Virus record (IMG/VR): IMGVR_UViG_3300028842_000016
Coordinates: 1-48,765 of that record
DNA length: 48,765 nucleotides
Source: a virus
Reading direction: 5' to 3' (one strand)
Shown here in pieces: positions 18,308 to 40,798 of the stretch. Each line of letters begins with the position of its first letter. The first letter of the stretch is position 1. The position numbers and the translations under genes are program-made. The notes under the pieces are model-generated. The model did not search any database. It had not been told where the DNA came from and was given only the letters and a program-made list of their open reading frames with translations.

Positions 18308-19201
18308 ATGTCGAAATTAACGCGCGTTTTCCAGAACCTGTTTGGGCGAGATGGTGATCAAAGTCATTTTGGTCAATTCGGATCCCGGGTGACCCCGTTG
18401 ACCGGATTCCCAACAAAAGACCCGAACAGCATCCAGGCTTTATCAGCCTTCGTCAATAACGGATGGAAGGATGCGATCGTTGGGCTCAAGAAAACCCCGA
18501 CCCTGGAAGACATGAACGGTCTGATGTACCTGATTTTCTATCAGCTCTGCTATGGGTTTCAGGAAGGTGTCCCGGAGTGGAACTCAGCGACGACCTATTA
18601 CATCGGGAGTGTCGTCAAAAAGTCTGGGACCTTTGAGTTCTACGGATCTCTCACAGACGGGAACGCTGGGAATGCGCTTCCAAGCAAGACGGACAACGGA
18701 TACTGGCACTATCTTAACCCTCCCTCTGTCCAGCCAGGAATAGTCGATGCGGCCGCGGGCCCAAATGCTCCTTTCGGTTACCTGAAATGTGACGGAACAG
18801 ATTACGCCTCTGCGTCTTATCCAGACCTCTCCACCTACTTGGCCGGGACATGGGACACCTTCAGGGGCCAGTCTTCTCCTGGAGCTGGTCGGTTCAGAAC
18901 ACCAGCACTTCAAGGATTGACGCTTATTGGTGTCGGAGGAGCACTGGGAGGGGTCAGCGCGCGGACGCTGGCTCAGTACGTTGGAGAGGAACAGCACACG
19001 CTGACCACGACGGAAATACCTGCGCATAGTCATCCGTACGGAAAGCTAAACCCGGCAATCAACGTCGACAACACGGGATCTACTCGAGTCGCTATTTTCG
19101 ATTCTGACGGAACTGGTGGATCAACGTCGAATGCAGGTGGTGGAGCAGCGCATAACAATATGCAACCGAGCGCCGGAATTAATTGGGTCATCAAATACTG
19201 A
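18308..19201 (+). CDS. Tail fibre protein with C-terminal phage tail collar domain
   Basis: YLKCDGTDYASASYPDLSTYLAG ... RTPALQGLTLIG ... EEQHTLTTTEIPAHSH ... GGAAHNNMQPSAGINWVIKY is the collar-domain signature. ATG 18308 lies inside track ORF 18257-19201. Confidence 0.8.
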   Translation: MSKLTRVFQNLFGRDGDQSHFGQFGSRVTPLTGFPTKDPNSIQALSAFVNNGWKDAIVGLKKTPTLEDMNGLMYLIFYQLCYGFQEGVPEWNSATTYYIGSVVKKSGTFEFYGSLTDGNAGNALPSKTDNGYWHYLNPPSVQPGIVDAAAGPNAPFGYLKCDGTDYASASYPDLSTYLAGTWDTFRGQSSPGAGRFRTPALQGLTLIGVGGALGGVSARTLAQYVGEEQHTLTTTEIPAHSHPYGKLNPAINVDNTGSTRVAIFDSDGTGGSTSNAGGGAAHNNMQPSAGINWVIKY

Positions 19202-19214: not shown

Positions 19215-20864
19215 ATGCGAAGACTGATCGCCACGTTGTTGATTATAGGAGCCCTGCCGGTCGCAGCGTTTGCGGCGTCTGGCGCACAGACATTGGTAAA
19301 CGAATCCGGACTGGCCTACACGACGACCTACACCCAGAATCTGCAGGCTTTCGGGAATCCTCAGAGCGCCGCCTCTAAGCTATCCGTCCAGGTGACGTGG
19401 TCCTCTGCCAACTTCGTGACCTCTTCGTTTACAGATGGCACGCAGTCTACTGGATCAATCACCGTGGCCAGCAACAACCTGCTGTCAGTGGCTGCCACAA
19501 ACCAGATCACAGTGCCTTCCACGGCTCTGATTTTAGGATCTGGGGCTACTTCCCAAGTCACGATCAGCTCGTGCGTTCCAAAGTCGACCGTCTATTTCAG
19601 CGGTCGTGGGATTGTCGAAGGGAAGGACTGGAACTGCGGTGCCTCCACGACCCTCTCGGCCGCCGCACTTGCGTCTGGATTCAATACGGCTTTTGGAAAC
19701 ATCTTCACCAGCACCAACGTGGGCGCCGTGGTGTATTCGACGATGAATGTCGTGGGCTCCTACGCAAACGGGTATACCGTGACATCCTCTTCAGCGCCAG
19801 CCTACACGGTCTCAAATTTCTCTGGAGGTCTGGATCCGGCCCTCCGGAACGCGATCATCTATTTCAACGGCGTTCCCTATCAGAACGGGTATTTCTGGAC
19901 TGATGCCAGCGGGACCTCTGCTGGAACGGCGGCATCCATCGCGGCCATGTTCCAGACTTTTGGCGTGGTGACAGCGACATCGGCCGCCGGCGGCAGCGTG
20001 GTCTATTCAACTGCAACAACCAAGGGCTCCGCGGCAAACGCCTACACCCTGACAGCCTCCACCAATAAACTGACTATTGCGTCGACGAAATACACCAATG
20101 GTCAGGATGCTGCGACTCTGACTCTAAACGGTAAGACATTCACCGCCGGCGTGGATTTCAGCACGGGAGCCACCACCTCGAACACGGCCACCAGTCTGGC
20201 CGCGGCCATCACAGCGGCCGCCGCGACAGTCAAGGTAAATGCTCAAGCGGTCGCCGCTGTTGTTCGCGCGACATCGACAGTTAATGGAGTCTCTTCGAAA
20301 TACCTCATGTCGACGAACTCTCCCAGCTATCTGACGCTCTCCGGGGCGACGATGACGGGTGGAACGAATGCCGGGACGACTCTTAACTCGTCTGTCATTT
20401 CCCTTCCGTCCCATGGATTCACGACGGCACTTCCTGTGCTTTATGGCCAGGGAGCGCTGCTGGGCGGACTGACCGACAAAACGACCTATTACGCCGTGGT
20501 GGTCGATGCGAACAACATCAAGCTGTCCTCCACGAGCGCCGTGGCGCAGACGGGCAATGGAATCGTGATTACGAGTTCCAGTTCCCAAACCACCGCGCAC
20601 ACATTCACCCTGACGCCGATCTCATGGCTGCAGGGCCCGGCCTCCGCCAAATGGCGCGTCTCCAATGATGGGGTCAACTTCGCGGATTTCTCCAGCACAT
20701 CCAACAACGTGACGGTCTCCAGCCAGACGTTTGCTGCCGTCTATCCTTCGTCGACAACGGTTCAGGACTTTGGAAACGTGGATTATGGATACCTGCAGTA
20801 CAGCGTGACGGGTCCGACTTGGGGCGGGATCAACCTGAAGGTCATCCTGAATGCAAAGGACTAA
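19215..20864 (+). CDS. Fibre-like Ser/Thr/Ala-rich protein with N-terminal signal peptide (549 aa)
   Basis: AAGGAG RBS at 19203. Leader MRRLIATLLIIGALPVAAFA/ASG. Three internal modules of about 60-70 aa ending in VVYST..G(S)xAN(G/A)YT(V/L)T. Confidence 0.6.
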   Translation: MRRLIATLLIIGALPVAAFAASGAQTLVNESGLAYTTTYTQNLQAFGNPQSAASKLSVQVTWSSANFVTSSFTDGTQSTGSITVASNNLLSVAATNQITVPSTALILGSGATSQVTISSCVPKSTVYFSGRGIVEGKDWNCGASTTLSAAALASGFNTAFGNIFTSTNVGAVVYSTMNVVGSYANGYTVTSSSAPAYTVSNFSGGLDPALRNAIIYFNGVPYQNGYFWTDASGTSAGTAASIAAMFQTFGVVTATSAAGGSVVYSTATTKGSAANAYTLTASTNKLTIASTKYTNGQDAATLTLNGKTFTAGVDFSTGATTSNTATSLAAAITAAAATVKVNAQAVAAVVRATSTVNGVSSKYLMSTNSPSYLTLSGATMTGGTNAGTTLNSSVISLPSHGFTTALPVLYGQGALLGGLTDKTTYYAVVVDANNIKLSSTSAVAQTGNGIVITSSSSQTTAHTFTLTPISWLQGPASAKWRVSNDGVNFADFSSTSNNVTVSSQTFAAVYPSSTTVQDFGNVDYGYLQYSVTGPTWGGINLKVILNAKD

Positions 20865-20867
20865 ACC

Positions 20868-23402
20868 ATGAATAAAACATCCCGAAGGCTGGCTCTGGCC
20901 GCCTGGGTCTCGGCCGTCACACTGGCCGGGACCTCGGTTCGGGCTATTGAGCCCATCGTAAAAACAGGCCAGGTTCTCTTTGGTTCAAATCAAAAGACGA
21001 TCACCAGCTCAACGGATGTTCTGATTGACACCCAGACGCACGTATTGTCCGCCGGCGCCGGATTTAAAACCAACCGGATCACGTTTATTGGTGATGGGAC
21101 TTATTTGGCGTCTACCACCACAATCTCGTCACCCGCGTGGGGATCTATCACCGGTACGTTAACCAATCAGTCTGACCTTCAGGCCAGGTTCGCCGGGGTT
21201 GGAGCTTCTACCGCGTCGCTCTATATTCAGATCGTTGGGGTCGGGGTCACGACCGGATCGCTGCAAACCCAAATCAACAACCTTGGAAGCACATACCTTA
21301 CGCTGAGTTCCGCCACGGCCACGTACGTTCAAAAAAATGCGTTCGCTTCATCGAGCAGCAGCGGAACGCTGAGTGCCAGCGATTGGCGAATGTTTCAGAA
21401 TTTGGGAGGGCTTCAGAATCCCGGAACGGTTACATGGGTCAATAATTTTGGAATCCAGGTCTCAACGTTGGTGGTCGATTCTGGCGCTAGTTTCTCAACC
21501 AACGTCGGGGCTGTGGTTTTCAACAACCCGGATTACATCGGGCCTTTTAGAACCGGTTTTTATTTTGCTTTCAATGGATCAATTTATGGAGGAATCGGGC
21601 AAACAAATTCGTCGTGGATGGATGGAAGCAATCGAAAGATCGCGGAAAGACCGATCATCTTTAGCCCCGATGGTGTCGACACGATGCTGATTAGTGCTGG
21701 CCATGGGAGCATTGGCGGGGCTGTAACGGGCACTCAAGTGGCCTTTAGCACGTGGGCGGTCATTGGGAATATGTCGGTAGGGTCTACCCCGTCTACGCCG
21801 CCGTTGAATGGTCTTTATGTGCAGGGCGGAATTATTAACGGGAACCTGACCGCCAGCCGGTTTGTGATGACCGACGCCTCAAAGCAGCTGGTGAGCTATG
21901 ACCTGCTCGGCGGAAACAATGTGTTTTTGGGGTCACAGACGATTCTGTCACCGTTGGGTGCCGCCGTAACGTATGGGCTCAAGTCTGGATCATTCACCAT
22001 CACCGGACTCTTGGGGGTCGGACCACTTCGTGGCGGACCAAGCGCGATCGTGTCGACAGGTCCCGTGGCTTTGGCTTCAGAGGTGTCGGGTATCCTTCCG
22101 GTTTCAAATGGCGGGACAGGCACAGCCACCCCAAATCTCGTCGCTGGAAACAATGTCTCAGTAACCGGCACCTGGCCAAATCAAACCATCGGCGTAAATG
22201 GGATTGGGAGCGCTCTGGCTGTCGGAACTGGCACCGCCTCGGCATTCGTGGCCATCACGTCACCGACAGCCGCGGCCAGCTTCAATAATGCCCAGTTTAT
22301 TTCTCTGGCTGTTGGATCCACGAACTTCTTGAGCCTGAACACTTCCAGCATCACGGCCCAGGGCAATTCGTTCAACGGAGCCAACCAACTGGTCAAGCTG
22401 TCGGCCGGAAGCCAGCTTCCTGCGATTGATGGCAATCTGCTCACAAACCTGAATTACACCAGCATAACTGGAGTGTCTGCGAATCGGGTGCCATATTCCA
22501 ACGCCGGCGGGACAGCCTTAACCTCTTCCGCCAACATGACTTTCGACGGGTTTACGTTGTCTGTGACGACCCTTAATTTCACCAGCAATTTAAGTGTCTC
22601 GGGAACGCCATTAATGTATTGGAACTCTGGAAACGGGTCGTTTTTATTCGGGCCCGGGTTCTCTCAGGTCAATACGGGGCAGAGCAATACGAGTCACGGA
22701 TATTCTGCGTTAAGCAGGATCACATCCGGCAACTACAACACGTGTGGAGGCCTGCAGTCCTGCCTCGTTCTCTCGACTGGGAACTACAACACAGCGTGGG
22801 GCGCTCAGTCGCTTCAGCAGACCAGTTCCGGTTCATGGAACACATCAATTGGAGAAGCGGCCGGCTACAACATTCATGGCGACAGCAATACCGCTGTCGG
22901 GTATGCCGCGCTTCAAAATCTGACCTGGGGATCCGGGGTTACGGCTATCGGATTCAGCGCTGGGATTCATGACCTGGCCGGCGGAAGCTGGAACACGTAC
23001 CTCGGCGCGTTTTCGGACGCCGATAGCTCGAAGATCCTTTTCAACTCTACTGCCATCGGCTATGGCGCAGTCGTTAAATCGTCGAACACGGCGACAGTGG
23101 CCGCTGACAACCTGACCGTTCAAGCCATCCATTCACCATCTGTGAGTTCTTGTGGAACTGGAAGCCCTGCGATTACCGGGAGTGACATTGCCGGGTCGAT
23201 TACGACGGGAACAGGGGCTCCGACATCGTGTGGCGTCGTCTTTTCTCAGCCCTACACGTATGCGCCTTATTGCGTGGCACAGACAACATTCACAGCCACA
23301 TCGGCCGTAATTTCTTCGATCACTACGTCGAGCATGACGATCACGACGTCCGCTGGTTTAACGAGCGGCACGCTGACCTATCACTGCATCGGGAGGCAAT
23401 AA
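20868..23402 (+). CDS. Large fibre-like protein with signal peptide and C-terminal YadA-head/Hep_Hag-like repeats (844 aa)
   Basis: Leader MNKTSRRLALAAWVSAVTLAGTSVRA/IEP. Motifs WGSITGTLTNQSDLQ, NGGTGTATPNLVAGNNVSVTGTWPNQTI and repeated NTAxGxxAL-type units. Confidence 0.65.
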   Translation: MNKTSRRLALAAWVSAVTLAGTSVRAIEPIVKTGQVLFGSNQKTITSSTDVLIDTQTHVLSAGAGFKTNRITFIGDGTYLASTTTISSPAWGSITGTLTNQSDLQARFAGVGASTASLYIQIVGVGVTTGSLQTQINNLGSTYLTLSSATATYVQKNAFASSSSSGTLSASDWRMFQNLGGLQNPGTVTWVNNFGIQVSTLVVDSGASFSTNVGAVVFNNPDYIGPFRTGFYFAFNGSIYGGIGQTNSSWMDGSNRKIAERPIIFSPDGVDTMLISAGHGSIGGAVTGTQVAFSTWAVIGNMSVGSTPSTPPLNGLYVQGGIINGNLTASRFVMTDASKQLVSYDLLGGNNVFLGSQTILSPLGAAVTYGLKSGSFTITGLLGVGPLRGGPSAIVSTGPVALASEVSGILPVSNGGTGTATPNLVAGNNVSVTGTWPNQTIGVNGIGSALAVGTGTASAFVAITSPTAAASFNNAQFISLAVGSTNFLSLNTSSITAQGNSFNGANQLVKLSAGSQLPAIDGNLLTNLNYTSITGVSANRVPYSNAGGTALTSSANMTFDGFTLSVTTLNFTSNLSVSGTPLMYWNSGNGSFLFGPGFSQVNTGQSNTSHGYSALSRITSGNYNTCGGLQSCLVLSTGNYNTAWGAQSLQQTSSGSWNTSIGEAAGYNIHGDSNTAVGYAALQNLTWGSGVTAIGFSAGIHDLAGGSWNTYLGAFSDADSSKILFNSTAIGYGAVVKSSNTATVAADNLTVQAIHSPSVSSCGTGSPAITGSDIAGSITTGTGAPTSCGVVFSQPYTYAPYCVAQTTFTATSAVISSITTSSMTITTSAGLTSGTLTYHCIGRQ

Positions 23403-23403
23403 G

Positions 23404-24030
23404 ATGGGAATCCTTGCGCTTCATGCCGCCACTGGCCAAACCGCCTACGCGCATTTAACAAGCGGGCTCGATGCCAAAGTCGGGAATGGGTCCTCTCTGG
23501 AAATCTGGAACCAGGCCCACTGGTCTGATTACGTGAACAGCACTCCAGAGCAATCCGGATCCGGTCGCTACATTCTGACGGTCCCTGGCTATCTCCCGGC
23601 TGGTCGGTATTTCGCGACTCTTTACGTCCAGCTCGGTGGATCGCCAGCCGCCGGGGATACCCCGGTAGACGAAGACTGGTTTGACTGGGATGGATCAAAC
23701 GTCCTAACTCAAGGGTCTACGGTTGACGTAGGAAAGATCAACGGGAGTGCCATCGCGGCCGCCAATCTGTCGAAATCAGCCGCCGCGATGCAGGCCGGGG
23801 TGGCAGCTGCCGGCACACTGACCACCAGTCAGATGACGACCAATCTGACCAATACCACTCCCGACGCTTATAAAGGCCGCGTGCTGCAGTTCACCAGCGG
23901 AAACAATGCCGGCATCATCGCGCTTATCACCGCTTACGCAGTGACCGGTGGAAAGCTCACGTTCATCTGCTACGGAAACTCGCCACTCCCCAGCGCGCCG
24001 GTGGCCTCAGACACCTTTGTGATCGTGTGA
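23404..24030 (+). CDS. Hypothetical fibre-module protein (208 aa)
   Basis: The start lies 2 nt after the preceding stop. No signal peptide. The function is unknown. Confidence 0.55.
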   Translation: MGILALHAATGQTAYAHLTSGLDAKVGNGSSLEIWNQAHWSDYVNSTPEQSGSGRYILTVPGYLPAGRYFATLYVQLGGSPAAGDTPVDEDWFDWDGSNVLTQGSTVDVGKINGSAIAAANLSKSAAAMQAGVAAAGTLTTSQMTTNLTNTTPDAYKGRVLQFTSGNNAGIIALITAYAVTGGKLTFICYGNSPLPSAPVASDTFVIV

Positions 24031-24082
24031 TGAACGCATTTCAGGATCAGCTGTCGACGCTTGGACTCTCAGGAGTTAGAGC

Positions 24083-24108
24083 GGTGCCTTTTCAGACGGC
24101 ACCTTTCT
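24083..24108 (+). terminator. Terminator-like hairpin
   Basis: GGTGCC-ttttcagac-GGCACC followed by TTTCT, in the 139-bp gap after 24030. Confidence 0.4.
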
Positions 24109-24169
24109 ACGTGAAGGTCTATTTATACGTGAAGGCCGTGACGTCTAGCCTGCTTAGAGTGGAGGCCCC

Positions 24170-24850
24170 ATGAATATCGGAGACGCGCCGGAGAGCGGGC
24201 AGTATTACCAGCAGGGATCTGTTTCTGAGATCGTAGTCCAGATCCAAGACTATTCGACGGGGGATCCGATTCTTCTTCAGGCAGCCACAGGGATGACCAT
24301 ATCCCTCGTTTACCCTGATGGACTCACGCGCCAGGACTTCGCGGCAACACTTTTTACAGACGGCGCTGATGGTCGGATTAAATATCGAACCCGGAACAAT
24401 GGCAGCACGCTCGTCGATCTTTCTCAGTCAGGGCTTTACATGGTTCAGGGGTTGGCCTACATCGGCGGGATTCCAATCAAGAGCAAGTGGACCGATTTCT
24501 ATGTTTTGCCCGATGCCCTGGGTACGATCCCAACACCAGGCGTCCAGCCGTCGGCCATGATATTCCGCGACACCGCGGATGTCCGTTGGGCTATGACCGT
24601 AGACACCGCCGGCGGGATCCATTTTTCTGCGACTCCATCCGGTCCCTCCTCCTATACAGAACTGAATACCGTCGTGATGAAAGATCCAAATGGGCTCTAT
24701 TGGATTATGGCGATCGACACGTCAGGAAACCCTCAGCCGACTCCCGGCGGTTCTCATGCCGGCGCACTGGAATCGTTCATCCTCGTGGACTCAAACAATA
24801 AAAGCTGGGTCATTACCATAGACGAAACGGGGGTATGGGTGGCATCATGA
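24170..24850 (+). CDS. Hypothetical protein with three C-terminal repeats of about 30 aa (226 aa)
   Basis: GGAGG RBS at 24161. The repeats are RDTADVRWAMTVDTAGGIHF, KDPNGLYWIMAIDTSGNPQP and VDSNNKSWVITIDETGVWVA. Confidence 0.55.
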   Translation: MNIGDAPESGQYYQQGSVSEIVVQIQDYSTGDPILLQAATGMTISLVYPDGLTRQDFAATLFTDGADGRIKYRTRNNGSTLVDLSQSGLYMVQGLAYIGGIPIKSKWTDFYVLPDALGTIPTPGVQPSAMIFRDTADVRWAMTVDTAGGIHFSATPSGPSSYTELNTVVMKDPNGLYWIMAIDTSGNPQPTPGGSHAGALESFILVDSNNKSWVITIDETGVWVAS

Positions 24851-27690
24851 AAAAATTAATCTGCTTAGCTTTCCTGTTCCTGTCACCGGCCGCGCGGGCG
24901 GATAACGCGGTCACGCTCTACGATTCAGCCAACCATTACATCCAGATCAAAGCCCCAAATGTGATGAGCCAGACGTATAAATTGATCATGCCCCTAAGCC
25001 AGGGGGCAACGGGTCAGGTTCTCGCATTGGCTTCTGTTGCCGGAAACACCGCGACGTTCGCATGGTCAAGCGCGGCGGGCGGCGGCGCCTGGGGAAGCAT
25101 CAGCGGAACCCTTTCGGCTCAGACAGATCTCCAGACCGCACTCAATAATATTGGCGTTTCAACGGGATCTTTGCAGGGTCAGATCAACGGCCTGGGATCC
25201 ACTTATTTAACTCTCAGCTCTGCGACGGCCACCTACCTCCAAAGCTCGTCCGCCACCGCGACCTATTTGCAAAGTTCGGTGGCGGCGGGCACCTACCTCA
25301 GCATGTCGAGCGCGACGGCGACATACGCCTTCAAGAACCAGATCACTGGATTGCAGACTCAAATAAATTCAATCGGCCTGTCGACGGGTTCACTCCGAAC
25401 CGATTTAAACGCGACGGCTCTTTCCACTCAAACGCTGGCGAATGCCGTTGGATCTTCAACCGCCTCTTTGAGAACAGATCTTAATGCCGTCCGATTGGCC
25501 ACAGGTACCATTTCGACTTCCGTTGATGACTCTGTGATGGTAGGGAACGGGACCGGAATGGATGCGAAGGCTATATCAGACTGCCAAGGTGCTGGGAAAG
25601 CAATGACCTACACGGCAGCCACCAATACGTTTGGGTGCAATACGATATCGGCCGGGAGCGGCGGATCCTCTTTGGCGATCGGAACAGGCACGACGTCCGG
25701 ATACGCCGGCGTGATCACTTCATCTCCTTCCCTTGTTCTCCTTTTTGATAACGCGACGACGAAGGGAGTCTTGCAGGGCGGAGGGACCTACTTTTTCACC
25801 CTCAATTCTGGATCTGTCACGCTCCAAGGAAACTCGATCAACTTGGCTAACCTTCAGACACAAGCCAACAATATCGGATTATCCACGGGAACAATCCAGA
25901 CCCAGGTAAACAGTGTTGCCTTGGCGACAGGAACGATTCAGACGCAGCTTAATTCGGTCGCTCAATCTACCGGAACGCTGCTCACTCAGATTAATACAAA
26001 GGTCAATTTCTCGTCGTTCTCGGCGACTCAACCGATCCTCTACAACTCAGCCACCGGAGCATTTAGTGCAACTCTAATCAGTCTGTCGACAGGCGTTGTT
26101 GGAACGCTTCCTGTAGCCAATGGCGGGACAGGAACAGCGACTCCTTCTCTCGTCCAAGGGGCGAACATAACAATAACAGGCTCGTGGCCGAATCAGACCA
26201 TCGCCGCAACTGCTGGATCTGGAGTTCTCTCCACAGACAGCACGACCTGGTCCGGCGTCTACAACTGGCCAAACGTAAACCCTTCAACGTTCACCAATCT
26301 TGTGGTGACTACTCTCACTATAACGGGCGCGATAATTATGAATGGCCCAGGCACGTGGCCCATCTTTACGCCCAAGGCGGATCCAGTTGATTATCGGGCC
26401 GTCCTGACCAGCTCAACGCTTACCGTTGGGCACTATGCGCTCATCTCGAGCACAAACGGGGCAATCATTGATGGTGGCATCCCTTCGGGTAGCGGTGTCC
26501 CTTCGATCAACTCCTATGGAAATCCAGCCATTACAAGCTCAGCCACGATTCTGGCCGGTACGAATGTGACGCTCGGGCAGTCAGGGAACACAATCACGAT
26601 TAATGCGTCTGGAGGGAGTGGTTCTCCGGCTGGTCCTGCGTGGTCTGTCCAGGTGTCTAGCGCTGGATCTCTTGGCGGTTTCGCCAATTTCCTGAACAAC
26701 GGAAGCACGATCACGATCAGCAGCGTGTTTAGTCTCGTTCTGGACAATATTTCCTCCATGACTCTGCAGGGAATCTATTTCGACACGATCGGAAGCACGT
26801 TCAACATTGTGACTGTGACGAGTTCCGTTGTTCTTCAGGATGGTGTCACGTCTTGGCCAGCATACCCCCACAATCCCCACTTTATCGGTGGAAATTTCAA
26901 CGGTCCTATGCAAACAAACATCCAGAACTTCTCTACAGGTTCGAATGCCGCGTCCGAGTATTGCGCCACCTCAGACACAGGGAATAACACGAAGAACTTT
27001 GCCTGTATGGGAATCAACAACTCAGGATTCTCTAACGCGACATGGCCGTACATGAGACCCCAGAGCGCCTATCTAATCTCTTCGGACAGTGATGTGGTAG
27101 TCGGCGCGGGAACGCTTGGGACAGATCCGGGAGCACAGATTATTTTTGTGACAAGTGCGACCACGCAGATGGTAATTAAATCGACTTCATCGGATGGTTA
27201 CGGGATAGTCATATCGACACGAGTGAACGCGCCCAACATTCCCCAGGTATACATGCTTCAAGTTGACTCGACAACGAATGGTACTGGGAACGCATCCACG
27301 CCGATCTCATTCCCTGTACTTGCGAACACGACTTATTACATCGACTGTTATCTGCTGTTCCAAACGACCACCACGACGACCGGGATAGCGTTTGCCCTCA
27401 ACACCCCATCAGCTCCCGGTGCCATTTCCTACACAGTGGGGATCCCAATCGCGGCAGATGCAGCGGCTGGGATGTTCTGGGGATGGGGTTCCTCATCTGA
27501 TGACTACGTGACGGGAACGGCTGTCCAGGCCATCAACACAACCTATGTTGCCAGGCTTTATGGGTCACTCCAGAACGGAGCAAATGCCGGAAATCTTGTC
27601 GTGAGGTTCCATAGTGAACTAGCGGGTCAAGATGCAAAGCTGAAGAATGGGAGCATGTGTACCCTGCTCACGAATCCGGGGAAACTATGA
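24847..27690 (+). CDS. Large fibre-like protein with signal peptide (947 aa), paralogous in part to 20868-23402
   Basis: ATGA overlap start. Leader MKKLICLAFLFLSPAARA/DNA. Shares the WGSISGTLSAQTDLQ, LGSTYLTLSSATATYLQ and NGGTGTATPSLVQGANITITGSWPNQTI modules. Confidence 0.65.
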   Translation: MKKLICLAFLFLSPAARADNAVTLYDSANHYIQIKAPNVMSQTYKLIMPLSQGATGQVLALASVAGNTATFAWSSAAGGGAWGSISGTLSAQTDLQTALNNIGVSTGSLQGQINGLGSTYLTLSSATATYLQSSSATATYLQSSVAAGTYLSMSSATATYAFKNQITGLQTQINSIGLSTGSLRTDLNATALSTQTLANAVGSSTASLRTDLNAVRLATGTISTSVDDSVMVGNGTGMDAKAISDCQGAGKAMTYTAATNTFGCNTISAGSGGSSLAIGTGTTSGYAGVITSSPSLVLLFDNATTKGVLQGGGTYFFTLNSGSVTLQGNSINLANLQTQANNIGLSTGTIQTQVNSVALATGTIQTQLNSVAQSTGTLLTQINTKVNFSSFSATQPILYNSATGAFSATLISLSTGVVGTLPVANGGTGTATPSLVQGANITITGSWPNQTIAATAGSGVLSTDSTTWSGVYNWPNVNPSTFTNLVVTTLTITGAIIMNGPGTWPIFTPKADPVDYRAVLTSSTLTVGHYALISSTNGAIIDGGIPSGSGVPSINSYGNPAITSSATILAGTNVTLGQSGNTITINASGGSGSPAGPAWSVQVSSAGSLGGFANFLNNGSTITISSVFSLVLDNISSMTLQGIYFDTIGSTFNIVTVTSSVVLQDGVTSWPAYPHNPHFIGGNFNGPMQTNIQNFSTGSNAASEYCATSDTGNNTKNFACMGINNSGFSNATWPYMRPQSAYLISSDSDVVVGAGTLGTDPGAQIIFVTSATTQMVIKSTSSDGYGIVISTRVNAPNIPQVYMLQVDSTTNGTGNASTPISFPVLANTTYYIDCYLLFQTTTTTTGIAFALNTPSAPGAISYTVGIPIAADAAAGMFWGWGSSSDDYVTGTAVQAINTTYVARLYGSLQNGANAGNLVVRFHSELAGQDAKLKNGSMCTLLTNPGKL

Positions 27691-28448
27691 AAAAACTGAT
27701 TGTTGCATTGTTGCTTATCCCATCAATCTCTCACGCCGGACGAATCACGATGAATTTTGGATCTGGCGGTGGAACAGTCACTTTTTCGTCTGGAACTGCG
27801 TCTAGTGGTGGAGGATCTGCGCCAACATTCGTCCGTGTTTCTTCGATGACCTATCGAGGCGGCGGCGGGTCTAATTGTGAGACAGGAACTATCACCATTG
27901 GAAGCGGAAACACACTTGTTTGCTTCTGTGGGTCTGGAGATACGAATGGGACCACGAGCATGTCAGATACTCTTGGGAATACATACACGGCATACGCGGC
28001 ACAAACTCTCGCCGGATCGAACTCCAGCATCAAGGCTTTCGTTGCAAAAAACACGACTGGGGGTACAGGTGTAATTTCTTGCACGGACCACGTGAACTGG
28101 CCCGGCGGCATGGATGGATTCTGTGCTGAATATTCTGGCGCAAATCTAACGGCTCCTGTTGATGTGTACAGCTCTAGCGCGTCTGCTGTAACAAGTGGAG
28201 GCCTAACGATGAACTCAAGCCCCGCTACGACAACGGCAAGCAACGTCGTGATGGTTTCGGCTTTAAGACAAGGAACTGGATTGACGATAACTGGTCAGTC
28301 TGGAACGAGTCGAATGACGAACACTGCGTCATACGTTCAACAGATTCAGGATACTGTTGTCACTTCTCCAGGGTCTTATGAGTCTACGTACACATGGGCT
28401 GGAGGTTCCTACTTCCCATCTATGTACCAGGTTGGGATTAAACCTTGA
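27687..28448 (+). CDS. Secreted Gly/Ser/Thr-rich protein (253 aa), function unknown
   Basis: ATGA overlap start. Leader MKKLIVALLLIPSISHA/GRI. Confidence 0.55.
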   Translation: MKKLIVALLLIPSISHAGRITMNFGSGGGTVTFSSGTASSGGGSAPTFVRVSSMTYRGGGGSNCETGTITIGSGNTLVCFCGSGDTNGTTSMSDTLGNTYTAYAAQTLAGSNSSIKAFVAKNTTGGTGVISCTDHVNWPGGMDGFCAEYSGANLTAPVDVYSSSASAVTSGGLTMNSSPATTTASNVVMVSALRQGTGLTITGQSGTSRMTNTASYVQQIQDTVVTSPGSYESTYTWAGGSYFPSMYQVGIKP

Positions 28449-30469
28449 GTCGTTTGTCCTTCATCGCTCTTCTCGTTCTGATTCCTTCGACATCACACTC
28501 AGCGCTCACTCACTTCTACATGTCAGACGGAGGTATTAAGGTTCCCCAAGACGACATTCCTCCGTCAACGACGAGCTACTTCTGGGATGGAACCAGCAAC
28601 GCCTATTTCACGGAATCAAAGAACGGGACGCTTGGGATTGAGTTGGTTATCGGAAATAACACAGCGGTGGACATTGGGAGCGTCAGCGTTTCTATGAGCG
28701 GGTTCACAGGATCAGGGGGAAGTATCTCATCGGTGGCCGTGTCGTCATCGAACGTGTGGGATTGGACCGGTAGACCGATTGAGCAATTTCTCGAACGGTG
28801 TCTGAAAATCGAGGGAATATCAATGCTGACGTATGAGCAGTACGATCAACAGCATCTTCCCGAGAAGTTTAGACTTCCGTGCACGATGACAGCTGGTCAA
28901 TGCTCCGCAAACGGTGGGACAGTATGGGCAGACCGCCCAGACCACGACAAATGCATTCCCGAGATCATGGTGCCTTACGAGTTTTACGGGTCGAGCTTCA
29001 CCGTGTACGCCTCAAGCTCTCAGTCGATCTGGTTCGACGTTTACATTGCAAAGACCCTCCCGGCAGGACAGTACACCGCCACGATCACCGTGAAAGAGAA
29101 CGGATCGACGGTAAAGACGATCACCGTTAATCTCACTGTCAGAAACTCCACATACCCTGACGTTCCAAATTACAAATACCTTTTGAATGTTGGACGGGAT
29201 GACATCACGGAACGGATGAACGGTGTACGGTTTCCTGCGAACTCGAATTTGGAACCGTACTACACGACACGGAAGCGTTTCCTCCAGATGGCTCACAGGC
29301 ATGGAACAACCCCGTTCGGAATCGACAATCTCGTTGGAGATGTCCCCTCACCAACGGACTCTGCTCGACTCTCTGGCGATCTGTACGCAAGCGCGACAGG
29401 ATACGGAATGGCTCGAGGAGAAAGCACGGGTGACACTGTCTATTCGATTGGAACATATGGGAGCCCGTGGCAGTCTGCGTGGTCGACGACGAACGCCACT
29501 GTGTTCTGCGCTCATGCCAGCGCTTGGGCAACGTATTTCAAAAACAATCACCCAGATGTTCGGGCATTTATCTACCTCGCCGACGAGACTCTCACGGGAG
29601 TCCCCGTGTGGTCAAACTGGCTGAGCACGGTAACGGCATGTCAGGTTTCCGGGTACAAAGTTAATGGGATGGTCACGTCAAACTGGACAAGCGTTCAGAC
29701 CGGCGCACCCTACGTCAACATGCCATTTTCAACAGGATGGATCGGGGTTTCATCTCCGACTTGGCAAGCAGCTGCAAATAATTATTTACAGGGGCTTACG
29801 CCGGGAACTACCACAGCTGGGTCCTATAACGGCAAGGCTCCTTGGAGCGGGACCATAGCGACCGAAGATGATGGAATTTCTCCGCTCGTAATCGCGTGGG
29901 GTGACGCAAAGATGGGCATACCAGTTCACCTCTATTGGGAATCAACCTACTACAACAATTATCAGGGTGGAATGGGAAACACACATCTATTTAGCGATGC
30001 CGCAACGTTCGGCGGAACGGGATCTTACGACGCTCAAAGAGGAAGGACCGGCTGGAATTACACTAACGGAGATGGGGTATTGATGTACCCCGGAACGGAT
30101 GCTGTTTATCCAGCTGAGAGCTATGGCGTTAATGCCCCATTCGCTTCTCGTCGATTAAAGATGACCAGAAAGAGCATCCAAGATTATGACCTTATTGTCA
30201 TGGCGCGAGCGGTGAACGCCGCTGCTACGAACGCAATCGTGGCTTCGATGGTTCCTCAGATTCTCTGGGAAAACCAGTGCTACGAGTTGACCCAGCACAC
30301 GGGAACCGACTGCACCTACTATCGCGGGCCTAGGTCATGGACAAACAACCCAGACAACTGGGAATACGCCCGGAACGCCATCGCCAACCTCATCCCCGCC
30401 GGGACCGTCGGCATAAACAACTATTTGACAGGCGATTTCAAACTAATCGGAGGCGGTACTTTCCGATGA
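28445..30469 (+). CDS. Secreted DUF4091-like glycoside hydrolase (candidate polysaccharide depolymerase), 674 aa
   Basis: TTG start overlapping the preceding TGA. Leader MSRLSFIALLVLIPSTSHS/ALT. C-terminal HLYWESTYY ... GWNYTNGDGVLMYPG ... ASRRLKMTRKSIQDYDLIV resembles the DUF4091 signature. Confidence 0.55.
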   Translation: MSRLSFIALLVLIPSTSHSALTHFYMSDGGIKVPQDDIPPSTTSYFWDGTSNAYFTESKNGTLGIELVIGNNTAVDIGSVSVSMSGFTGSGGSISSVAVSSSNVWDWTGRPIEQFLERCLKIEGISMLTYEQYDQQHLPEKFRLPCTMTAGQCSANGGTVWADRPDHDKCIPEIMVPYEFYGSSFTVYASSSQSIWFDVYIAKTLPAGQYTATITVKENGSTVKTITVNLTVRNSTYPDVPNYKYLLNVGRDDITERMNGVRFPANSNLEPYYTTRKRFLQMAHRHGTTPFGIDNLVGDVPSPTDSARLSGDLYASATGYGMARGESTGDTVYSIGTYGSPWQSAWSTTNATVFCAHASAWATYFKNNHPDVRAFIYLADETLTGVPVWSNWLSTVTACQVSGYKVNGMVTSNWTSVQTGAPYVNMPFSTGWIGVSSPTWQAAANNYLQGLTPGTTTAGSYNGKAPWSGTIATEDDGISPLVIAWGDAKMGIPVHLYWESTYYNNYQGGMGNTHLFSDAATFGGTGSYDAQRGRTGWNYTNGDGVLMYPGTDAVYPAESYGVNAPFASRRLKMTRKSIQDYDLIVMARAVNAAATNAIVASMVPQILWENQCYELTQHTGTDCTYYRGPRSWTNNPDNWEYARNAIANLIPAGTVGINNYLTGDFKLIGGGTFR

Positions 30470-30849: not shown

Positions 30850-31119
30850 GTGTCCGAACTTTTGCACCAAATGCGGCGAAAGACTGATCGAGTGGCCCGG
30901 AAGCCTGGGAAGCGATTGCCCGAATGCGTGCAAACAGGACGTCTCTGGTACGCGCGCCTTAAATGTCCCCGGTGCGGGTCCCTATGCGCAGGACAGCCTT
31001 GCGAAGGGAAATATCGGATCTTCTGTGAAACCCCAAAATGTGGATTCGTGACCTGCTCCAGCAAATGGGATGGACTTGGCGCGGCCGCCTCGGACCGCTC
31101 GGAGGGAGTCCCCAAATGA
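30850..31119 (+). CDS. Cys-rich zinc-ribbon-like protein (89 aa)
   Basis: AAGGAGG at 30836, then GTG 30850. Contains CPRCGSLCAGQPC and CETPKCGFVTC. Its stop overlaps the endolysin ATG. Confidence 0.4.
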   Translation: MSELLHQMRRKTDRVARKPGKRLPECVQTGRLWYARLKCPRCGSLCAGQPCEGKYRIFCETPKCGFVTCSSKWDGLGAAASDRSEGVPK

Positions 31120-31622
31120 TCGAAGACCGCAAGTTGTCGGAACATTTCAGTCTTTACGAACTGACGCACACGGATCACGCCGAATTTCTGGCTATGAACC
31201 GTCAGGTGACGGAGGATCAGATCGCCAAGCTCATTCAGGTGGCGAATCTCTATGAAGTCGTCCGGCTGATCACTGATTGCCCTTGGATCATTCCCAGCGC
31301 CTACCGTTGCCCTGCGCTCAATGCCGCCATAGGATCGACTCCGCGGAGCCAGCATCTTTTGTGTGAGGCCGGCGATGGCGTGCCCAAGGGCGGCCTGAGC
31401 GTCCCGGATGCGTTTAAACGGCTTCGCGCGGCCGCCAAGGATGGGAAGATCAAATTCGGGCAGATGATCTACGAGAAGGCCAACCGCAACTATTCCGGCG
31501 GCGTTGTGGAGTGGATCCACCTTTCGCTGGGGTTCCCGTACCGACAAATCGATCGCTGTGGACAGATCCTGACGATGGTGGATGGTTCCTACCAACTTCT
31601 CGAGACTGTGCCGCAAAAATAG
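31116..31622 (+). CDS. Endolysin, peptidase M15 family
   Basis: FSLYELTHTD ... SAYRCPALNAAIGSTPRSQHLLCEAGD ... EWIHLS matches the M15 zinc-peptidase H/D/H pattern. GGAGGGA RBS upstream. ATG 31116 lies inside track ORF 31038-31622. Confidence 0.8.
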   Translation: MIEDRKLSEHFSLYELTHTDHAEFLAMNRQVTEDQIAKLIQVANLYEVVRLITDCPWIIPSAYRCPALNAAIGSTPRSQHLLCEAGDGVPKGGLSVPDAFKRLRAAAKDGKIKFGQMIYEKANRNYSGGVVEWIHLSLGFPYRQIDRCGQILTMVDGSYQLLETVPQK

Positions 31623-31991: not shown

Positions 31992-32002
31992 AGGAGCCTA
32001 AA

Positions 32003-40741: not shown

Positions 40742-40798
40742 GCTACCGCCTGGCGGCCGTCATCATCATCGCGTTGTCGATATGGAGGAGCTGCTTCC

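What the first reader, a model, noticed from the sequence alone, without database searches (positions are those of the whole stretch)
19215..30469. Five of seven proteins in an 11-kb tail-fibre-position cassette carry Sec-type signal peptides
A conventional baseplate (J-like, DUF2612-like) and a collar-domain fibre are followed by seven more ORFs. Five of them open with a basic n-region, a 12-18-residue hydrophobic core and an AxA-like cleavage motif:
- 19215: MRRLIATLLIIGALPVAAFA/AS
- 20868: MNKTSRRLALAAWVSAVTLAGTSVRA/IE
- 24847: MKKLICLAFLFLSPAARA/DN
- 27687: MKKLIVALLLIPSISHA/GR
- 28445: MSRLSFIALLVLIPSTSHS/AL

The last two leaders share LIPSxSH[AS]. The cargo is three fibre-like Ser/Thr/Ala/Gly-rich proteins of 550-950 aa, a 253-aa Gly/Ser/Thr-rich protein and a DUF4091-like glycosidase.

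Virion parts of tailed phages assemble in the cytoplasm, so cleavable export signals on fibre-like proteins are unexpected. Two readings are possible. The proteins may be exported non-virion factors, such as receptor masking, surface remodelling, free depolymerase or adhesins shown by the lysogen. Alternatively the leaders may be uncleaved membrane anchors used during assembly. I know of no described system like this, so it is my best candidate for the novel element in the window.
Basis: partly seen in the sequence, partly recalled or inferred. Interest (0 to 1): 0.72.

Follow-up and report, generated by a model that had tools for sequence, protein, structure and literature searches.

The report
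Phage tail-fibre-like proteins carrying export signals
A complete 48.6-kb phage related to a Bdellovibrio phage follows its normal tail-fibre gene with a conserved block of large fibre-, adhesin- and glycosidase-like proteins that carry cleavable export signals, so the infected cell probably secretes them instead of building them into the virus particle inside the cell.

Summary
All five leaders are at the stated coordinates. Equivalent leaders occur on the orthologous proteins of seven syntenic relatives. They also occur in 33 of 34 database representatives of the E-type family, where conserved mature sequence starts exactly at the predicted cleavage site (A|D-T-A-V-T-L-Y). Leader-bearing relatives have paired cysteines (29 even: 6 odd counts). 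Leaderless fibre relatives do not (33:26). This is independent evidence of folding outside the cytoplasm.

The window is a circular, temperate dwarf myovirus. Its nearest cultured relative is Bdellovibrio phage phi1422, which also has a leader-bearing 614-aa protein directly after its fibre. Vibrio and Klebsiella relatives have none.

The cargo is built from phage-fibre modules. E's N-domain is a repeat unit also found in giant proteins that match solved Bdellovibrio MAT surface fibres.

Best reading: these are late-expressed, Sec-exported, disulfide-bonded envelope or surface fibres plus a GH123-like enzyme. They are a phage-borne functional analogue of MAT fibres, but not MAT members.

Not excluded: periplasm-matured fibres that join virions only at lysis.

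Host, export and function remain inferred. Novelty: a new variant of a known kind.

The parts
18308..19201 (+). Leaderless collar-domain tail fibre, the conventional fibre just upstream of the cassette. True start is MSKLTRVFQNLF.
   Evidence: Pfam Collar PF07484 and 13 PHROG tail or tail-fibre families. The N-terminus is conserved in L001, L002, L004, L009, L011 and L012. It is 39% identical to phi1422 gp73.
19215..20864 (+). A: 549-aa Ser/Thr/Ala-rich fibre-like protein. Leader is residues 1-20 (nt 19215-19274). The mature part has 2 Cys (residues 120 and 141).
   Evidence: AGGAG Shine-Dalgarno. Orthologues with leaders sit in the same position in 6 syntenic genomes. Residues 395-465 match a cyanophage tail-fibre motif.
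20868..23402 (+). B: 844-aa fibre-like protein. Leader is residues 1-26 (nt 20868-20945). Conserved mature N-terminus (S/E)-I/P-QPIV..G.VLYGS. Contains a beta-helix repeat block and a 4-Cys C-terminal domain.
   Evidence: PHROG virion structural and tailspike families match residues 564-742. tblastn hits to tail-fibre or structural proteins of cyanophages and other phages. Leader-bearing orthologues P0047, P0087, P0107, P0109 and those in the loci.
23404..24030 (+). C: 208-aa conserved protein with no leader. Function unknown.
   Evidence: Orthologues in all syntenic loci begin MGG(I/V)IPAGAGTG and have no leader. The only family hit is a sub-threshold CshA_NR2 match.
24027..24173 (+). Conserved 48-aa ORF (GTG start) that overlaps both the stop of C and the start of D.
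   Evidence: 46-49-aa counterparts with the motif GQITRLG...AI.W are called in L002, L009, L011 and L012.
24170..24850 (+). D: 226-aa leaderless protein with no Cys, the most conserved gene of the cassette. It has two beta-sandwich domains. Its stop overlaps the start of E.
   Evidence: 65 database clusters, all 220-236 aa, on contigs of at most 52 kb. AlphaFold2 pLDDT 90.4. The N-domain resembles the N-terminal domains of BppU, tailspikes and baseplate components, and phage NF5 and 80alpha baseplate chains.
24847..27690 (+). E: 947-aa fibre. Leader is residues 1-18 (nt 24847-24900). Then a ~70-aa conserved N-domain (19-88), coiled-coil repeats, the common fibre motif GGTGTATP..ITGSWPNQTI, and a C-terminal beta-sandwich. 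6 Cys.
   Evidence: N-domain family. Leaders in 33 of 34 representatives. The AlphaFold2 model is poor overall (pLDDT 48). The C-terminal 800-945 scores about 50-80 per 10-residue block and gives weak TNF/C1q-like, birnavirus VP2 and lambda gpJ receptor-binding-domain matches.
27687..28448 (+). F: 253-aa Gly/Ser/Thr-rich protein. Leader is residues 1-17 (nt 27687-27737). 5 Cys. It forms a conserved pair with the gene that follows.
   Evidence: Homologues (23-33% identity), most with leaders, precede a large leader-bearing protein in L003, L004 and L002. No family or PDB match.
28445..30469 (+). G: 674-aa GH123-like putative glycoside hydrolase. Leader is residues 1-19 (nt 28445-28501). TTG start overlaps the stop of F. 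8 Cys.
   Evidence: Pfam GH123_N 2.2e-5, 23 bits against a cut-off of 22. PDB GH123 5L7V and 5L7R at 1e-6, and 8K2F at 4.5e-5. 45% identical to a leader-bearing orthologue in L003. DUF4091 not detected.

Best explanation
The five N-termini are genuine Sec-type, signal-peptidase-I-cleaved leaders.

Proposed sequence of events. Late in lytic infection the phage transcribes this block as the tail end of its structural operon. It exports A, B, E, F and G across the inner membrane. There they fold in the oxidising envelope compartment with disulfide bonds. A, B and E become long fibres, presumably trimeric, assembled from the same interchangeable modules as phage tail fibres. F and G form a conserved pair whose large member is a GH123-like glycosidase.

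Each family keeps its own conserved domain directly behind the cleavage site. By analogy with Bdellovibrio MAT surface fibres, I propose this domain holds the fibre on an envelope or surface element while the variable C-terminal module is presented. The variable modules include a TNF/C1q-like sandwich, a beta-helix, Ig-like domains, LamG domains and the enzyme.

Proposed role. The proteins bind or trim the surface glycans of the infected cell, and of its surroundings once lysis frees them. That would give receptor interference or receptor destruction, and passage through outer layers. They are not built into the virion in the cytoplasm. The leaderless collar fibre, and probably D and C, are the cytoplasmically assembled tail parts.

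Shown:
- the leaders and their conservation
- the position of the conserved mature N-termini
- the cysteine-pair signature
- the module homologies
- operon coupling
- restriction of the feature to the phi1422-related lineage

Inferred:
- actual export and cleavage
- trimer state
- anchoring through the N-domain
- timing of expression
- the ligand and the benefit to the phage
- a Bdellovibrio-like host
For: 1. Leaders are present and enriched. The heuristic flags 5 of 7 cassette genes against 3 of 45 elsewhere, p = 4e-4. Start codons are supported.

2. The leaders show the evolutionary signature of a signal peptide. The leader sequence varies, but the n/h/c architecture is kept and conserved mature sequence starts at +1. 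This holds for the 10 family members aligned, and for 33 of 34 representatives (clusters at 50% identity) that carry the E N-domain at residues 17-36. The one exception is N-terminally truncated. The same holds for the A- and B-type orthologues in L001, L002, L004, L009, L011 and L012.

3. Cysteines. The mature parts have 2, 6, 6, 5 and 8 Cys, mostly in nearby pairs. Among the 120 homologues of E, the 36 with leaders split 29 even: 6 odd: 1 zero, with 0.73% Cys. The 84 without leaders split 33: 26: 25, with 0.31% Cys. Binomial p is 1e-4 against 0.43. In phi1422, gp68 has 8 Cys and the leaderless fibre gp67 has none.

4. Late-operon context. Intergenic distances are 14, 3 and 1 nt, or 4-nt overlaps. 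There are no promoter- or terminator-like sites above chance (3 promoter-like sites against 10.9 expected). The 48-aa ORF closes the only gap.

5. Lineage. The portal is 37% identical to Bdellovibrio phage phi1422 (E 3e-78; other cultured phages reach at best E 4e-33 at about 30% identity). 17 syntenic structural homologues are shared with phi1422. phi1422 is lytic (PMC3391216) and has a leader-bearing 614-aa gp68 directly after its fibre. The group members Vibrio CP-T1 and Klebsiella KpV79 have no such genes.

6. Analogy to a known exported system. E's N-domain is a repeat unit of giant proteins, many with leaders or lipoboxes. One of them, P0135, matches the solved MAT structures 8OND, 8OJN, 8OML, 8OL4 and 8ON4. 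MATs are described as a signal peptide, a conserved N-domain directly behind it, a trimeric fibre and a mosaic tip, located on the cell surface (PMC10769870).

7. Module shuffling among leader-bearing proteins, seen in P0199, P0248 and P0203.
Against: - No trained signal-peptide predictor and no experiment were available. Export and cleavage are inferred.
- The host is unknown. Both genome scans were empty. The Bdellovibrio link rests on 24-39% identity to one phage.
- Three features are what one expects of true virion receptor-binding proteins: three distinct N-domains, each conserved; a fixed gene order A-B-C-small-D-E across divergent genomes; and tight coupling to baseplate genes.
- P0010 and P0072 carry a leader fused directly onto the classical fibre N-domain that is leaderless in phi1422 gp67 and in many phage fibres.
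- D looks like a baseplate adaptor and is translationally coupled to E.
- No signal for crossing an outer membrane was recognised, so 'surface' could in fact be 'periplasm'.
- The MAT-type N-domain itself is absent.
- The sequences in the cysteine-parity counts are related to one another, so the p-values are optimistic.
Confidence: 0.5

Rival explanations
1. Periplasm-matured virion fibres added in trans. A, B and E are real receptor-binding fibres of the particle. They are exported, cleaved and disulfide-bonded in the periplasm. They dock onto cytoplasmically assembled tails, for example on the leaderless adaptor D, only when holin lesions or lysis mix the two compartments.
For: - The genes sit in tail-fibre position in the late operon.
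- Conserved N-domains with variable C-termini are the classic pattern of receptor-binding proteins.
- Gene order is fixed in 7 syntenic genomes.
- D has a BppU-N/tailspike-N-like domain. It is always followed by a leader-bearing large protein, with a 4-nt overlap wherever I checked the coordinates: the window, L001, L002, L004, L009 and L011. L012 is an exception, with a 13-nt gap.
- For the 10 E-type proteins, the longest-contig length listed equals that of a D-family member, except P0004, whose D neighbour was seen directly in L002.
- P0010 and P0072 place a leader directly on the classical fibre N-domain.
- P0199 fuses the E-type N-domain to D-type repeats.
Against: - I know of no precedent in tailed phages, and four literature searches found none.
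- A leaderless collar fibre already provides an adsorption organelle.
- Related Vibrio and Klebsiella phages make do with one fibre.
- F and G look like an accessory protein and an enzyme, not fibres.
- Assembly efficiency after lysis would be low.
Confidence: 0.22
2. Lysogenic conversion. The proteins are surface adhesins expressed from the prophage for the benefit of the lysogen. If the host is a Bdellovibrio-like predator, they could serve as extra MAT-like prey-recognition fibres.
For: - The phage is temperate: it has an integrase and an adjacent tRNA-Leu.
- The architecture parallels MAT surface fibres.
- Mosaic tips are known to diversify prey recognition (PMC10769870).
- GC content is slightly lower across 24-30 kb.
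Against: - There is no intergenic space, promoter-like site or terminator to set the block apart from the late operon.
- The lytic phage phi1422 has the same kind of gene.
- All 65 D-family clusters and all E-type proteins lie on contigs of at most 52 kb. None was seen embedded in a long chromosomal contig.
- The sigma-70 scan may not apply to the unknown host, so this evidence is weak in both directions.
Confidence: 0.13
3. Uncleaved signal-anchors. The hydrophobic N-termini tether the proteins to the inner membrane. They would act as assembly scaffolds or SAR-like releasable domains and would not be cleaved.
For: - The leader of B is rich in Ala/Gly/Ser/Thr, like SAR domains.
- Phage late proteins with SAR or signal sequences are known for endolysins (own knowledge; PMC8878798).
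Against: - The h-regions are 10-17 residues, too short for a stable membrane span.
- The small-x-small motif at -3/-1 is conserved, with conserved mature sequence starting at +1, in more than 30 divergent members.
- The leader sequence itself is not conserved, only its physico-chemical character.
Confidence: 0.07
4. Not secretory. The hydrophobic N-termini are chance features or mis-called starts, and the proteins are ordinary cytoplasmically assembled tail fibres.
For: - Only a home-made heuristic was used.
- G scores below my threshold and starts with TTG.
- The heuristic gives a few weak false positives, such as the D orthologue in L009 at score 3.7.
Against: - The leaders are conserved across orthologues in 7 or more genomes and 33 of 34 family representatives.
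- No alternative start is available: the mature N-domain has no Met near its start, and downstream starts would truncate a conserved domain.
- Cysteine parity differs between leader-bearing and leaderless relatives.
- Other proteins of the same genome, and the fibre modules of CP-T1 and KpV79, score negative.
Confidence: 0.03

Closest known systems
Bdellovibrio bacteriovorus MAT (mosaic adhesive trimer) fibres, Caulton et al. 2024 (PMC10769870)
   Same: - A signal peptide, with a conserved beta-rich domain directly behind it.
- A long fibre that resembles a phage tail fibre.
- Swappable C-terminal tips, with C1q/TNF structure papers among those cited.
- Full-length Bd2133 and several tip fragments were produced with a periplasmic PelB leader.
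- E's N-domain is a repeat unit of proteins that match solved MAT structures.
   Different: - MATs are chromosomal genes of a predator and all share one N-domain. Here three or more different N-domains are encoded in a phage late operon.
- A proxy profile of the MAT-type N-domain finds nothing in the window or in any related locus.
- A, B and E give no sequence match to MAT crystal structures at E <= 1.
Bdellovibrio phage phi1422 and the phiPLPE-like dwarf myoviruses (Comeau et al. 2012, PMC3391216)
   Same: - Syntenic structural module from portal and head genes through to the baseplate and fibre, with 17 homologous proteins at 24-39% identity. No terminase match was found.
- phi1422 gp68 (614 aa, 8 Cys) has a strong leader and follows the fibre gene.
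   Different: - phi1422 has one such protein, not five, and it is not homologous to A-G.
- phi1422 is lytic with 44% GC. The window is temperate with about 55% GC.
- My term search of that paper turned up no discussion of signal peptides or virion proteomics.
Multi-RBP (branched) tail-fibre or tailspike cassettes, such as CBA120 TSP1-4, G7C and PhiK64-1 (own knowledge)
   Same: Several large receptor-binding-type genes in tandem behind the baseplate genes. They have conserved N-terminal docking domains and variable C-termini.
   Different: As far as I know, those proteins have no signal peptides and assemble in the cytoplasm.
Signal-peptide-bearing phage proteins encoded beside tail-fibre genes: T5 Llp, lambda Lom and Bor, Cor of T1/phi80 (own knowledge)
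   Same: Phage-encoded, exported to the envelope, and located in or next to the fibre region. Llp and Cor mask the receptor and protect progeny from debris or exclude superinfection.
   Different: Those are small single-domain lipoproteins or outer-membrane proteins. They are not 550-950-aa fibre-like mosaics and not a conserved multi-gene block.
Sec-exported and SAR endolysins, such as fOg44 Lys44 and the J5a-clade Wbeta-like phages (PMC8878798)
   Same: They show that tailed phages do route late proteins through the host Sec system before lysis.
   Different: They are lysis enzymes, not fibre-like proteins. The endolysin of this window (31038-31622, Peptidase_M15_3) has no leader.
Prophage-encoded CAZymes with signal peptides (PMC13507307)
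   Same: About 5% of soil-prophage CAZymes carry signal peptides. G fits that class, being GH123-like with a leader.
   Different: That survey treats such genes as auxiliary metabolic genes and excluded tail-fibre-associated genes. It does not describe fibre-like exported proteins.

Membership tests
Sec-type (SPase I) signal peptides | Basic n-region, hydrophobic h-region of 7-18 residues, small-x-small at -3/-1, no Pro at +1, cleavage within about 15-35 residues | tested here: met
   My own heuristic (no SignalP available) passes A, B, E and F with scores 5.2-6.7. G scores 3.7 at an alternative site, and SHS|AL also fits.
Sec-type (SPase I) signal peptides | Leader sequence evolves freely but keeps its architecture, and the conserved mature protein begins at +1 | tested here: met
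   Alignment A1. 33 of 34 N-domain representatives. Orthologues in 7 syntenic genomes.
Sec-type (SPase I) signal peptides | Not Tat and not lipoprotein: no conserved twin-arginine motif, and no lipobox Cys at +1 | tested here: met
   A (MRRLIA) and B (SRRLAL) contain RR, but their orthologues do not. The window has no L-x-[GA]-C lipobox. One relative, L003 4275-6629, has LAGC.
Sec-type (SPase I) signal peptides | Actual translocation and cleavage | not testable with these tools
   Indirect support only, from the even-number cysteine bias of leader-bearing relatives.
MAT fibre superfamily (Bdellovibrio) | N-terminal signal peptide | tested here: met
   The MAT definition comes from PMC10769870.
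MAT fibre superfamily (Bdellovibrio) | The shared ~130-aa MAT N-domain directly after the signal peptide | tested here: not met
   I built an HMM from the N-termini of five MAT-like proteins (P0130, P0133, P0135, P0141, P0149). It finds no ORF in the window or in L001-L012 at E <= 1. Caveat: the profile is a proxy and was not checked against Bd proteins themselves.
MAT fibre superfamily (Bdellovibrio) | Homotrimeric fibre shaft | tested here: inconclusive
   E has heptad-like repeats in residues 85-230 and 324-393, with weak matches to coronavirus HR1 trimers. The AlphaFold2 monomer model scores only pLDDT 48. No multimer prediction was possible.
MAT fibre superfamily (Bdellovibrio) | Mosaic, exchangeable C-terminal tips | tested here: met
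   Family members range from 455 to 1663 aa with unrelated C-termini. B's 4-Cys domain recurs behind an E-type N-domain in P0248 and P0203. E's tip gives weak TNF/C1q-like matches.
MAT fibre superfamily (Bdellovibrio) | Chromosomal gene of the bacterium, with the protein on the cell surface | tested here: not met
   The genes lie inside a phage late operon in all 8 genomes examined. Contigs are at most 52 kb. Surface localisation cannot be tested here.
Virion tail fibre / receptor-binding protein | Homology to known fibre modules | tested here: met
   - B: PHROG tailspike and virion-structural families and tblastn hits.
- A: a cyanophage fibre motif.
- E: the GGTGTATP..WPNQTI motif, shared with dozens of leaderless phage fibres.
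Virion tail fibre / receptor-binding protein | Cytoplasmic synthesis with a leaderless N-terminal virion-docking domain | tested here: not met
   All of A, B and E open with a leader. In the cassette region only the collar fibre, C, the 48-aa ORF and D are leaderless.
Virion tail fibre / receptor-binding protein | Presence in purified virions | not testable with these tools
   No cultured member exists. No proteomics was found for phi1422.
Glycoside hydrolase family 123 (protein G) | Match to GH123 family models or structures | tested here: inconclusive
   Pfam GH123_N scores 23 bits against a cut-off of 22, covering only residues 185-238. Glyco_hydro_123_N_2 is below its cut-off. PDB hits 5L7V, 5L7R and 8K2F are short stretches at E 1e-6 to 5e-5.
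Glycoside hydrolase family 123 (protein G) | DUF4091 catalytic-region domain and the catalytic Asp-Glu pair | tested here: not met
   DUF4091 was not reported at E <= 0.1. A conserved 'YLADETL' (D380-E381) is shared with the L003 orthologue, but it was not aligned to a GH123 catalytic site.
phiPLPE-like dwarf myoviruses | Genome of about 45-50 kb with a syntenic portal-head-sheath-baseplate module homologous to group members | tested here: met
   The genome is 48.6 kb and circular. Pfam annotation. 17 proteins are homologous to phi1422 in the same order. Portal hits to CP-T1, KpV79 and others at about 29%.

The most novel reading that the evidence does not exclude
A two-compartment assembly route for a tailed phage. 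The receptor-binding fibres A, B and E would be exported by Sec, cleaved, and disulfide-bonded in the periplasm. They would then be captured by cytoplasmically built tails, via the leaderless adaptor D (and perhaps C), only when the holin or lysis merges the compartments. The result would be virions with oxidatively stabilised fibres. A variant applies if the host is an endobiotic predator such as Bdellovibrio: the exported set would instead act on the dead prey's envelope so that progeny can escape the second enclosure.
Probability: 0.2. Interest if true: 0.93.

Novelty: new variant of a known kind. Interest (0 to 1): 0.72.

Why it matters
Tailed-phage particles are thought to be assembled entirely in the cytoplasm, and tail-fibre-position genes are routinely annotated as virion receptor-binding proteins. 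Here a whole lineage devotes about 11 of 48.6 kb to fibre-like proteins that carry export signals. The lineage comprises 65 clusters of the marker protein D and 8 genomes examined.

If these proteins are exported accessory factors:
- automatic annotation of receptor-binding proteins and host-range prediction would be wrong for such phages;
- phages would be shown to carry MAT-like surface fibres, linking phage fibre evolution to the prey-recognition fibres of predatory bacteria.

If they do end up on virions, a new assembly pathway would exist.

Either way the question is directly testable. phi1422 is a cultured phage with one such protein (gp68), on which virion proteomics and leader deletions can be done now.

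Tried and rejected
Host identification failed.
- A genome-collection scan with the E N-terminal motif confirmed no relative.
- An exact 37-mer from the 3' half of the phage tRNA-Leu(CAA) matched none of 185,579 species genomes.
- Cluster look-ups returned no organism names.
- Sample and assembly accessions appear in no paper.

Searches that found nothing.
- An IMG/VR scan with the same motif.
- Megablast of the cassette against 50,697 phage records.
- tblastn of E and G against the same records.

Family and structure searches.
- Pfam, PHROGs and NCBIfam are silent for A, C, D, E and F.
- PDB sequence searches are uninformative for A, B and F. E gives only coiled-coil noise.
- A single-sequence homologue search for D found only 2 proteins. 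The profile search was needed.
- The AlphaFold2 model of E is mostly low confidence, so only its last ~150 residues were interpreted, and weakly.
- The fold matches for D are generic Ig-like. The BppU-N/tailspike-N resemblance is suggestive, not diagnostic.

Ideas rejected.
- Tat export: the RR is not conserved.
- Lipoproteins: there is no lipobox.
- A promoter in the C-D gap: the gap is filled by a conserved ORF.
- MAT membership: the N-domain is absent.
- Homology between phi1422 gp68 and A.

Other.
- The 212-kb contig carrying the leader-bearing relative P0025 looked phage-like, not chromosomal, and was not pursued.
- The literature searches found no description of leader-bearing tail-fibre cassettes in tailed phages. 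The library is incomplete, so this is absence of evidence only.

Full report
**What the window is.** The 48,765-base window ends in a 141-bp direct repeat of its start, so it is a complete circular genome of about 48.6 kb. It is recorded in the protein collection as a whole metagenomic contig.
- It encodes terminase, portal (PF06381), a MuF-like protein, major capsid (PF09950), sheath (DUF3383), an E217-gp41-like hub, baseplate J, DUF2612/Wedge1 and a collar-domain fibre. All are on the + strand.
- Next come the cassette, then a lysis region with an M15 peptidase.
- After that come a tRNA-Leu(CAA), an integrase, and YqaJ/RecT recombination genes.
- It is therefore a temperate dwarf myovirus.

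**Check of the observation.** The seven ORFs and the five N-termini are exactly as reported.
- A has an AGGAG Shine-Dalgarno. D/E, E/F and F/G overlap by four bases. No in-frame downstream start with a ribosome-binding site would remove a leader.
- The only apparent gap, between C and D, holds a conserved 48-aa ORF that overlaps both neighbours. The block is eight tightly coupled genes.
- A sigma-70 and terminator scan finds nothing above shuffled expectation inside it.
- SignalP was not available. My own n/h/c heuristic flags 5 of 7 cassette proteins against 3 of 45 other proteins (p = 4e-4). At a stricter score it flags 4 of 7 against 2 of 45 (p = 2e-3).

**Are the leaders real? Evolutionary evidence.** Homologues of E that share its N-terminus all start with a different but equally signal-like leader. 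They then align from the first mature residue: A|D-T-A-(V/L)-T-L-Y-D-S.
- I searched the mature N-domain alone (70 aa) against 1.84 billion representatives and found 180 relatives.
- In 34 of them the domain sits at residues 17-36. Of these, 33 have a signal-like leader with the cleavage site directly in front of the domain. The remaining one is N-terminally truncated.
- I fetched seven syntenic relatives: L001, L002, L004, L009, L011 and L012, plus the variant L003.
- In each, the collar fibre is followed by A-like and B-like proteins with leaders, then leaderless C, the small ORF and leaderless D.
- Then come one or more large leader-bearing proteins, then the lysis genes.
- C and D never carry a leader.
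- D is the best marker of the lineage. It has 65 clusters at 90% identity, all 220-236 aa, all on contigs of at most 52 kb.

**Independent evidence of export.** Proteins that fold in an oxidising compartment tend to have even numbers of cysteines. This criterion is established knowledge from Dutton et al. 2008, which I cite from memory.
- The mature parts of A, B, E, F and G have 2, 6, 6, 5 and 8 Cys, mostly in close pairs. The 24 leaderless structural proteins have fewer Cys (0.54% of residues) and mostly 0 or 1 each.
- Among the 120 homologues of E, the 36 with leaders split 29 even: 6 odd: 1 zero, with 0.73% Cys. The 84 leaderless fibres split 33: 26: 25, with 0.31% Cys. The binomial p-values are 1e-4 and 0.43.
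- The N-domain representatives give 22: 5: 3.
- The sequences are related, so these p-values are optimistic. The contrast with leaderless relatives is nevertheless clear.

**What the cargo is.**
- B carries a beta-helix repeat block found in tail-fibre and virion-structural proteins of many phages.
- A has a motif shared with a cyanophage fibre.
- E contains the widespread fibre motif GGTGTATP..ITGSWPNQTI. Most proteins sharing that motif start with the classical leaderless fibre N-terminus MADVKISQLPAAT.
- In two relatives, P0010 and P0072, a leader is fused directly onto that classical N-domain: A|DEKISAMSS.
- E's low-confidence AlphaFold2 model (pLDDT 48) has a better-defined C-terminal beta-sandwich. 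It gives weak TNF/C1q-like, birnavirus VP2 and lambda gpJ receptor-binding-domain matches.
- F and G form a conserved pair that is also present in L003 at 33% and 45% identity. G is GH123-like on weak evidence, and DUF4091 was not detected.
- D folds with high confidence (pLDDT 90.4) into two beta-sandwich domains. The first resembles N-terminal domains of BppU, tailspikes and baseplate components.
- Modules are shuffled among leader-bearing proteins. P0199 joins an E-type N-domain to D-type repeats. P0248 and P0203 join it to B's four-cysteine C-terminal domain.

**Lineage and probable host.** The portal's best cultured match by a wide margin is Bdellovibrio phage phi1422, at 37% identity and E 3e-78. 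The next group of phages reaches E 4e-33 at best, at about 30% identity.
- Seventeen structural proteins are homologous to phi1422 proteins in the same order. This places the window in the phiPLPE-like dwarf myovirus group (PMC3391216).
- phi1422 is lytic. It has a leaderless fibre, gp67, with no Cys.
- gp67 is followed directly by gp68 (614 aa), which has a strong leader (MKFMIAFIIALFSVTMATA|Q) and 8 Cys.
- Two group members with gammaproteobacterial hosts, Vibrio CP-T1 and Klebsiella KpV79, go from a single leaderless fibre straight to lysis genes or a terminator. They have no leader-bearing protein in the module.
- Among the four cultured group members I examined, the feature therefore appears only in the Bdellovibrio phage. 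An unrelated podovirus contig also has it (L005; see other observations).
- The host itself remains unproven, because both genome-collection scans were empty.

**Closest known system.** The second class of N-domain hits is giant proteins of 1,000-3,750 aa with 3-17 internal copies of the same ~60-aa unit.
- About a third of the 30 examined carry leaders or lipoboxes. Others look like leaderless phage fibres.
- One of them, P0135, matches the solved structures 8OND (Bd2133), 8OJN, 8OML, 8OL4 and 8ON4. These are the B. bacteriovorus MAT fibres.
- Caulton et al. describe 21 MATs. Each has a signal peptide, a conserved ~130-aa beta-rich domain immediately after it and a mosaic C-terminal tip. Trimerisation appears invariant in the structures and models they examined.
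- The MATs they examined localise to the predator surface. The N-domain is proposed to bind a surface element (PMC10769870).
- The window's proteins share that architecture and some building blocks.
- They fail the membership test, however. A profile of the MAT-type N-domain finds nothing in the window or any related locus. They use at least three different N-domains. They are phage genes.

**Mechanism and rivals.** I commit to genuine Sec export, cleavage and oxidative folding of a late-expressed set of fibre-like adhesins and a glycosidase. These act at the envelope or surface, and in the lysate. In short, they are a phage-borne functional analogue of MAT fibres. Receptor interference, receptor destruction, or passage through outer layers are the most plausible benefits. 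I put this at about 0.5.
- **In-trans virion assembly (about 0.2).** The conserved N-domains, the fixed gene order, the adaptor-like D coupled to E, and leaders fused onto a classical fibre N-domain are what true virion fibres would show. I cannot exclude that periplasm-matured fibres join tails at lysis.
- **Lysogenic conversion (about 0.13).** This is disfavoured by the operon coupling and by the lytic phi1422.
- **Uncleaved anchors (about 0.07)** and **non-secretory artefact (about 0.03)** fit the conservation pattern poorly.

**Novelty and limits.** Six of my literature searches were aimed at leader-bearing tail-fibre proteins in tailed phages. None found a description of such a cassette. 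My term search of the phi1422 genome paper turned up no discussion of signal peptides. Secreted phage-fibre-like adhesins (MAT) and exported phage accessory proteins are both known kinds, so I rate this a new variant of a known kind. No step of export, cleavage, localisation, expression timing or function has been shown experimentally. The host is inferred.

**Other observations.**
- A 160-aa leader-bearing protein follows the lysis genes and has weak leader-bearing counterparts in relatives.
- A leader-bearing 130-aa ORF sits beside the integrase.
- An unrelated podovirus contig, L005, also has leader-bearing giant proteins.

Noticed in passing
window 24027-24173 (+): A conserved 48-aa ORF (GTG start) fills the only apparent intergenic gap of the cassette. 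It overlaps the stop of C and the start of D. Counterparts of 46-49 aa with the motif GQITRLG..AI.W occur in L002, L009, L011 and L012.
   Followed up: partly
window 32000-32482 (+): A 160-aa protein with a strong leader (MKLRLPVWIIAAVAIMVMGLLQSAHA|WNP) sits just after the holin-like and endolysin genes. Weakly similar leader-bearing proteins sit in the same place in L001, L003 and L004. It could be a spanin substitute or an outer-membrane protein. No family match was found.
   Followed up: partly
window 34402-34794 (-): A 130-aa ORF with a signal-like leader (MTVNMRNLLVALFILFLNSLVSA|EA) lies on the minus strand beside the integrase. This is a moron-like position, so it may be expressed in the lysogen. 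No family match was found.
   Followed up: no
window 32770-32854 (-) and 33075-34178 (-): A full-length tRNA-Leu(CAA) lies next to the tyrosine integrase and is a probable attP region. An exact 37-mer from its 3' half occurs in none of 185,579 species genomes.
   Followed up: partly
window 1-141 and 48625-48765: A 141-bp exact terminal direct repeat shows that the contig is a circularly closed, complete genome.
   Followed up: yes
L006 (phi1422) 40429-42273 and 44298-44810: The cultured Bdellovibrio phage phi1422 encodes gp68 (614 aa, strong leader, 8 Cys) right after its tail fibre. It also encodes gp75 (170 aa, strong leader). Both are annotated only as hypothetical proteins.
   Followed up: partly
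L005 2253-4940 and 10001-13510: An unrelated podovirus-type contig (SU10-like adaptor, neighbouring glycosyltransferases) also has leader-like N-termini on an 895-aa and an 1169-aa protein. The feature may therefore not be confined to one virus lineage.
   Followed up: partly
P0199, P0248, P0203 (database proteins): These are mosaic proteins. P0199 has a leader, an E-type N-domain and D-type 'W.[MI]T[VI]D..G' repeats. P0248 and P0203 have an E-type N-domain plus the four-cysteine C-terminal domain of B.
   Followed up: partly
window 19215-19240 and 20868-20900: The leaders of A (MRRLIA) and B (TSRRLAL) contain twin arginines reminiscent of Tat signals. The RR is absent from all orthologues examined, so Sec export is more likely.
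   Followed up: partly
L003 2873-4033 and 4275-6629: The related contig L003 has three small leader-bearing ORFs (39, 166 and 150 aa). It also has a 784-aa fibre-like protein whose leader ends in a canonical lipobox (LAGC|A). Some cassette members may therefore be lipoproteins.
   Followed up: no
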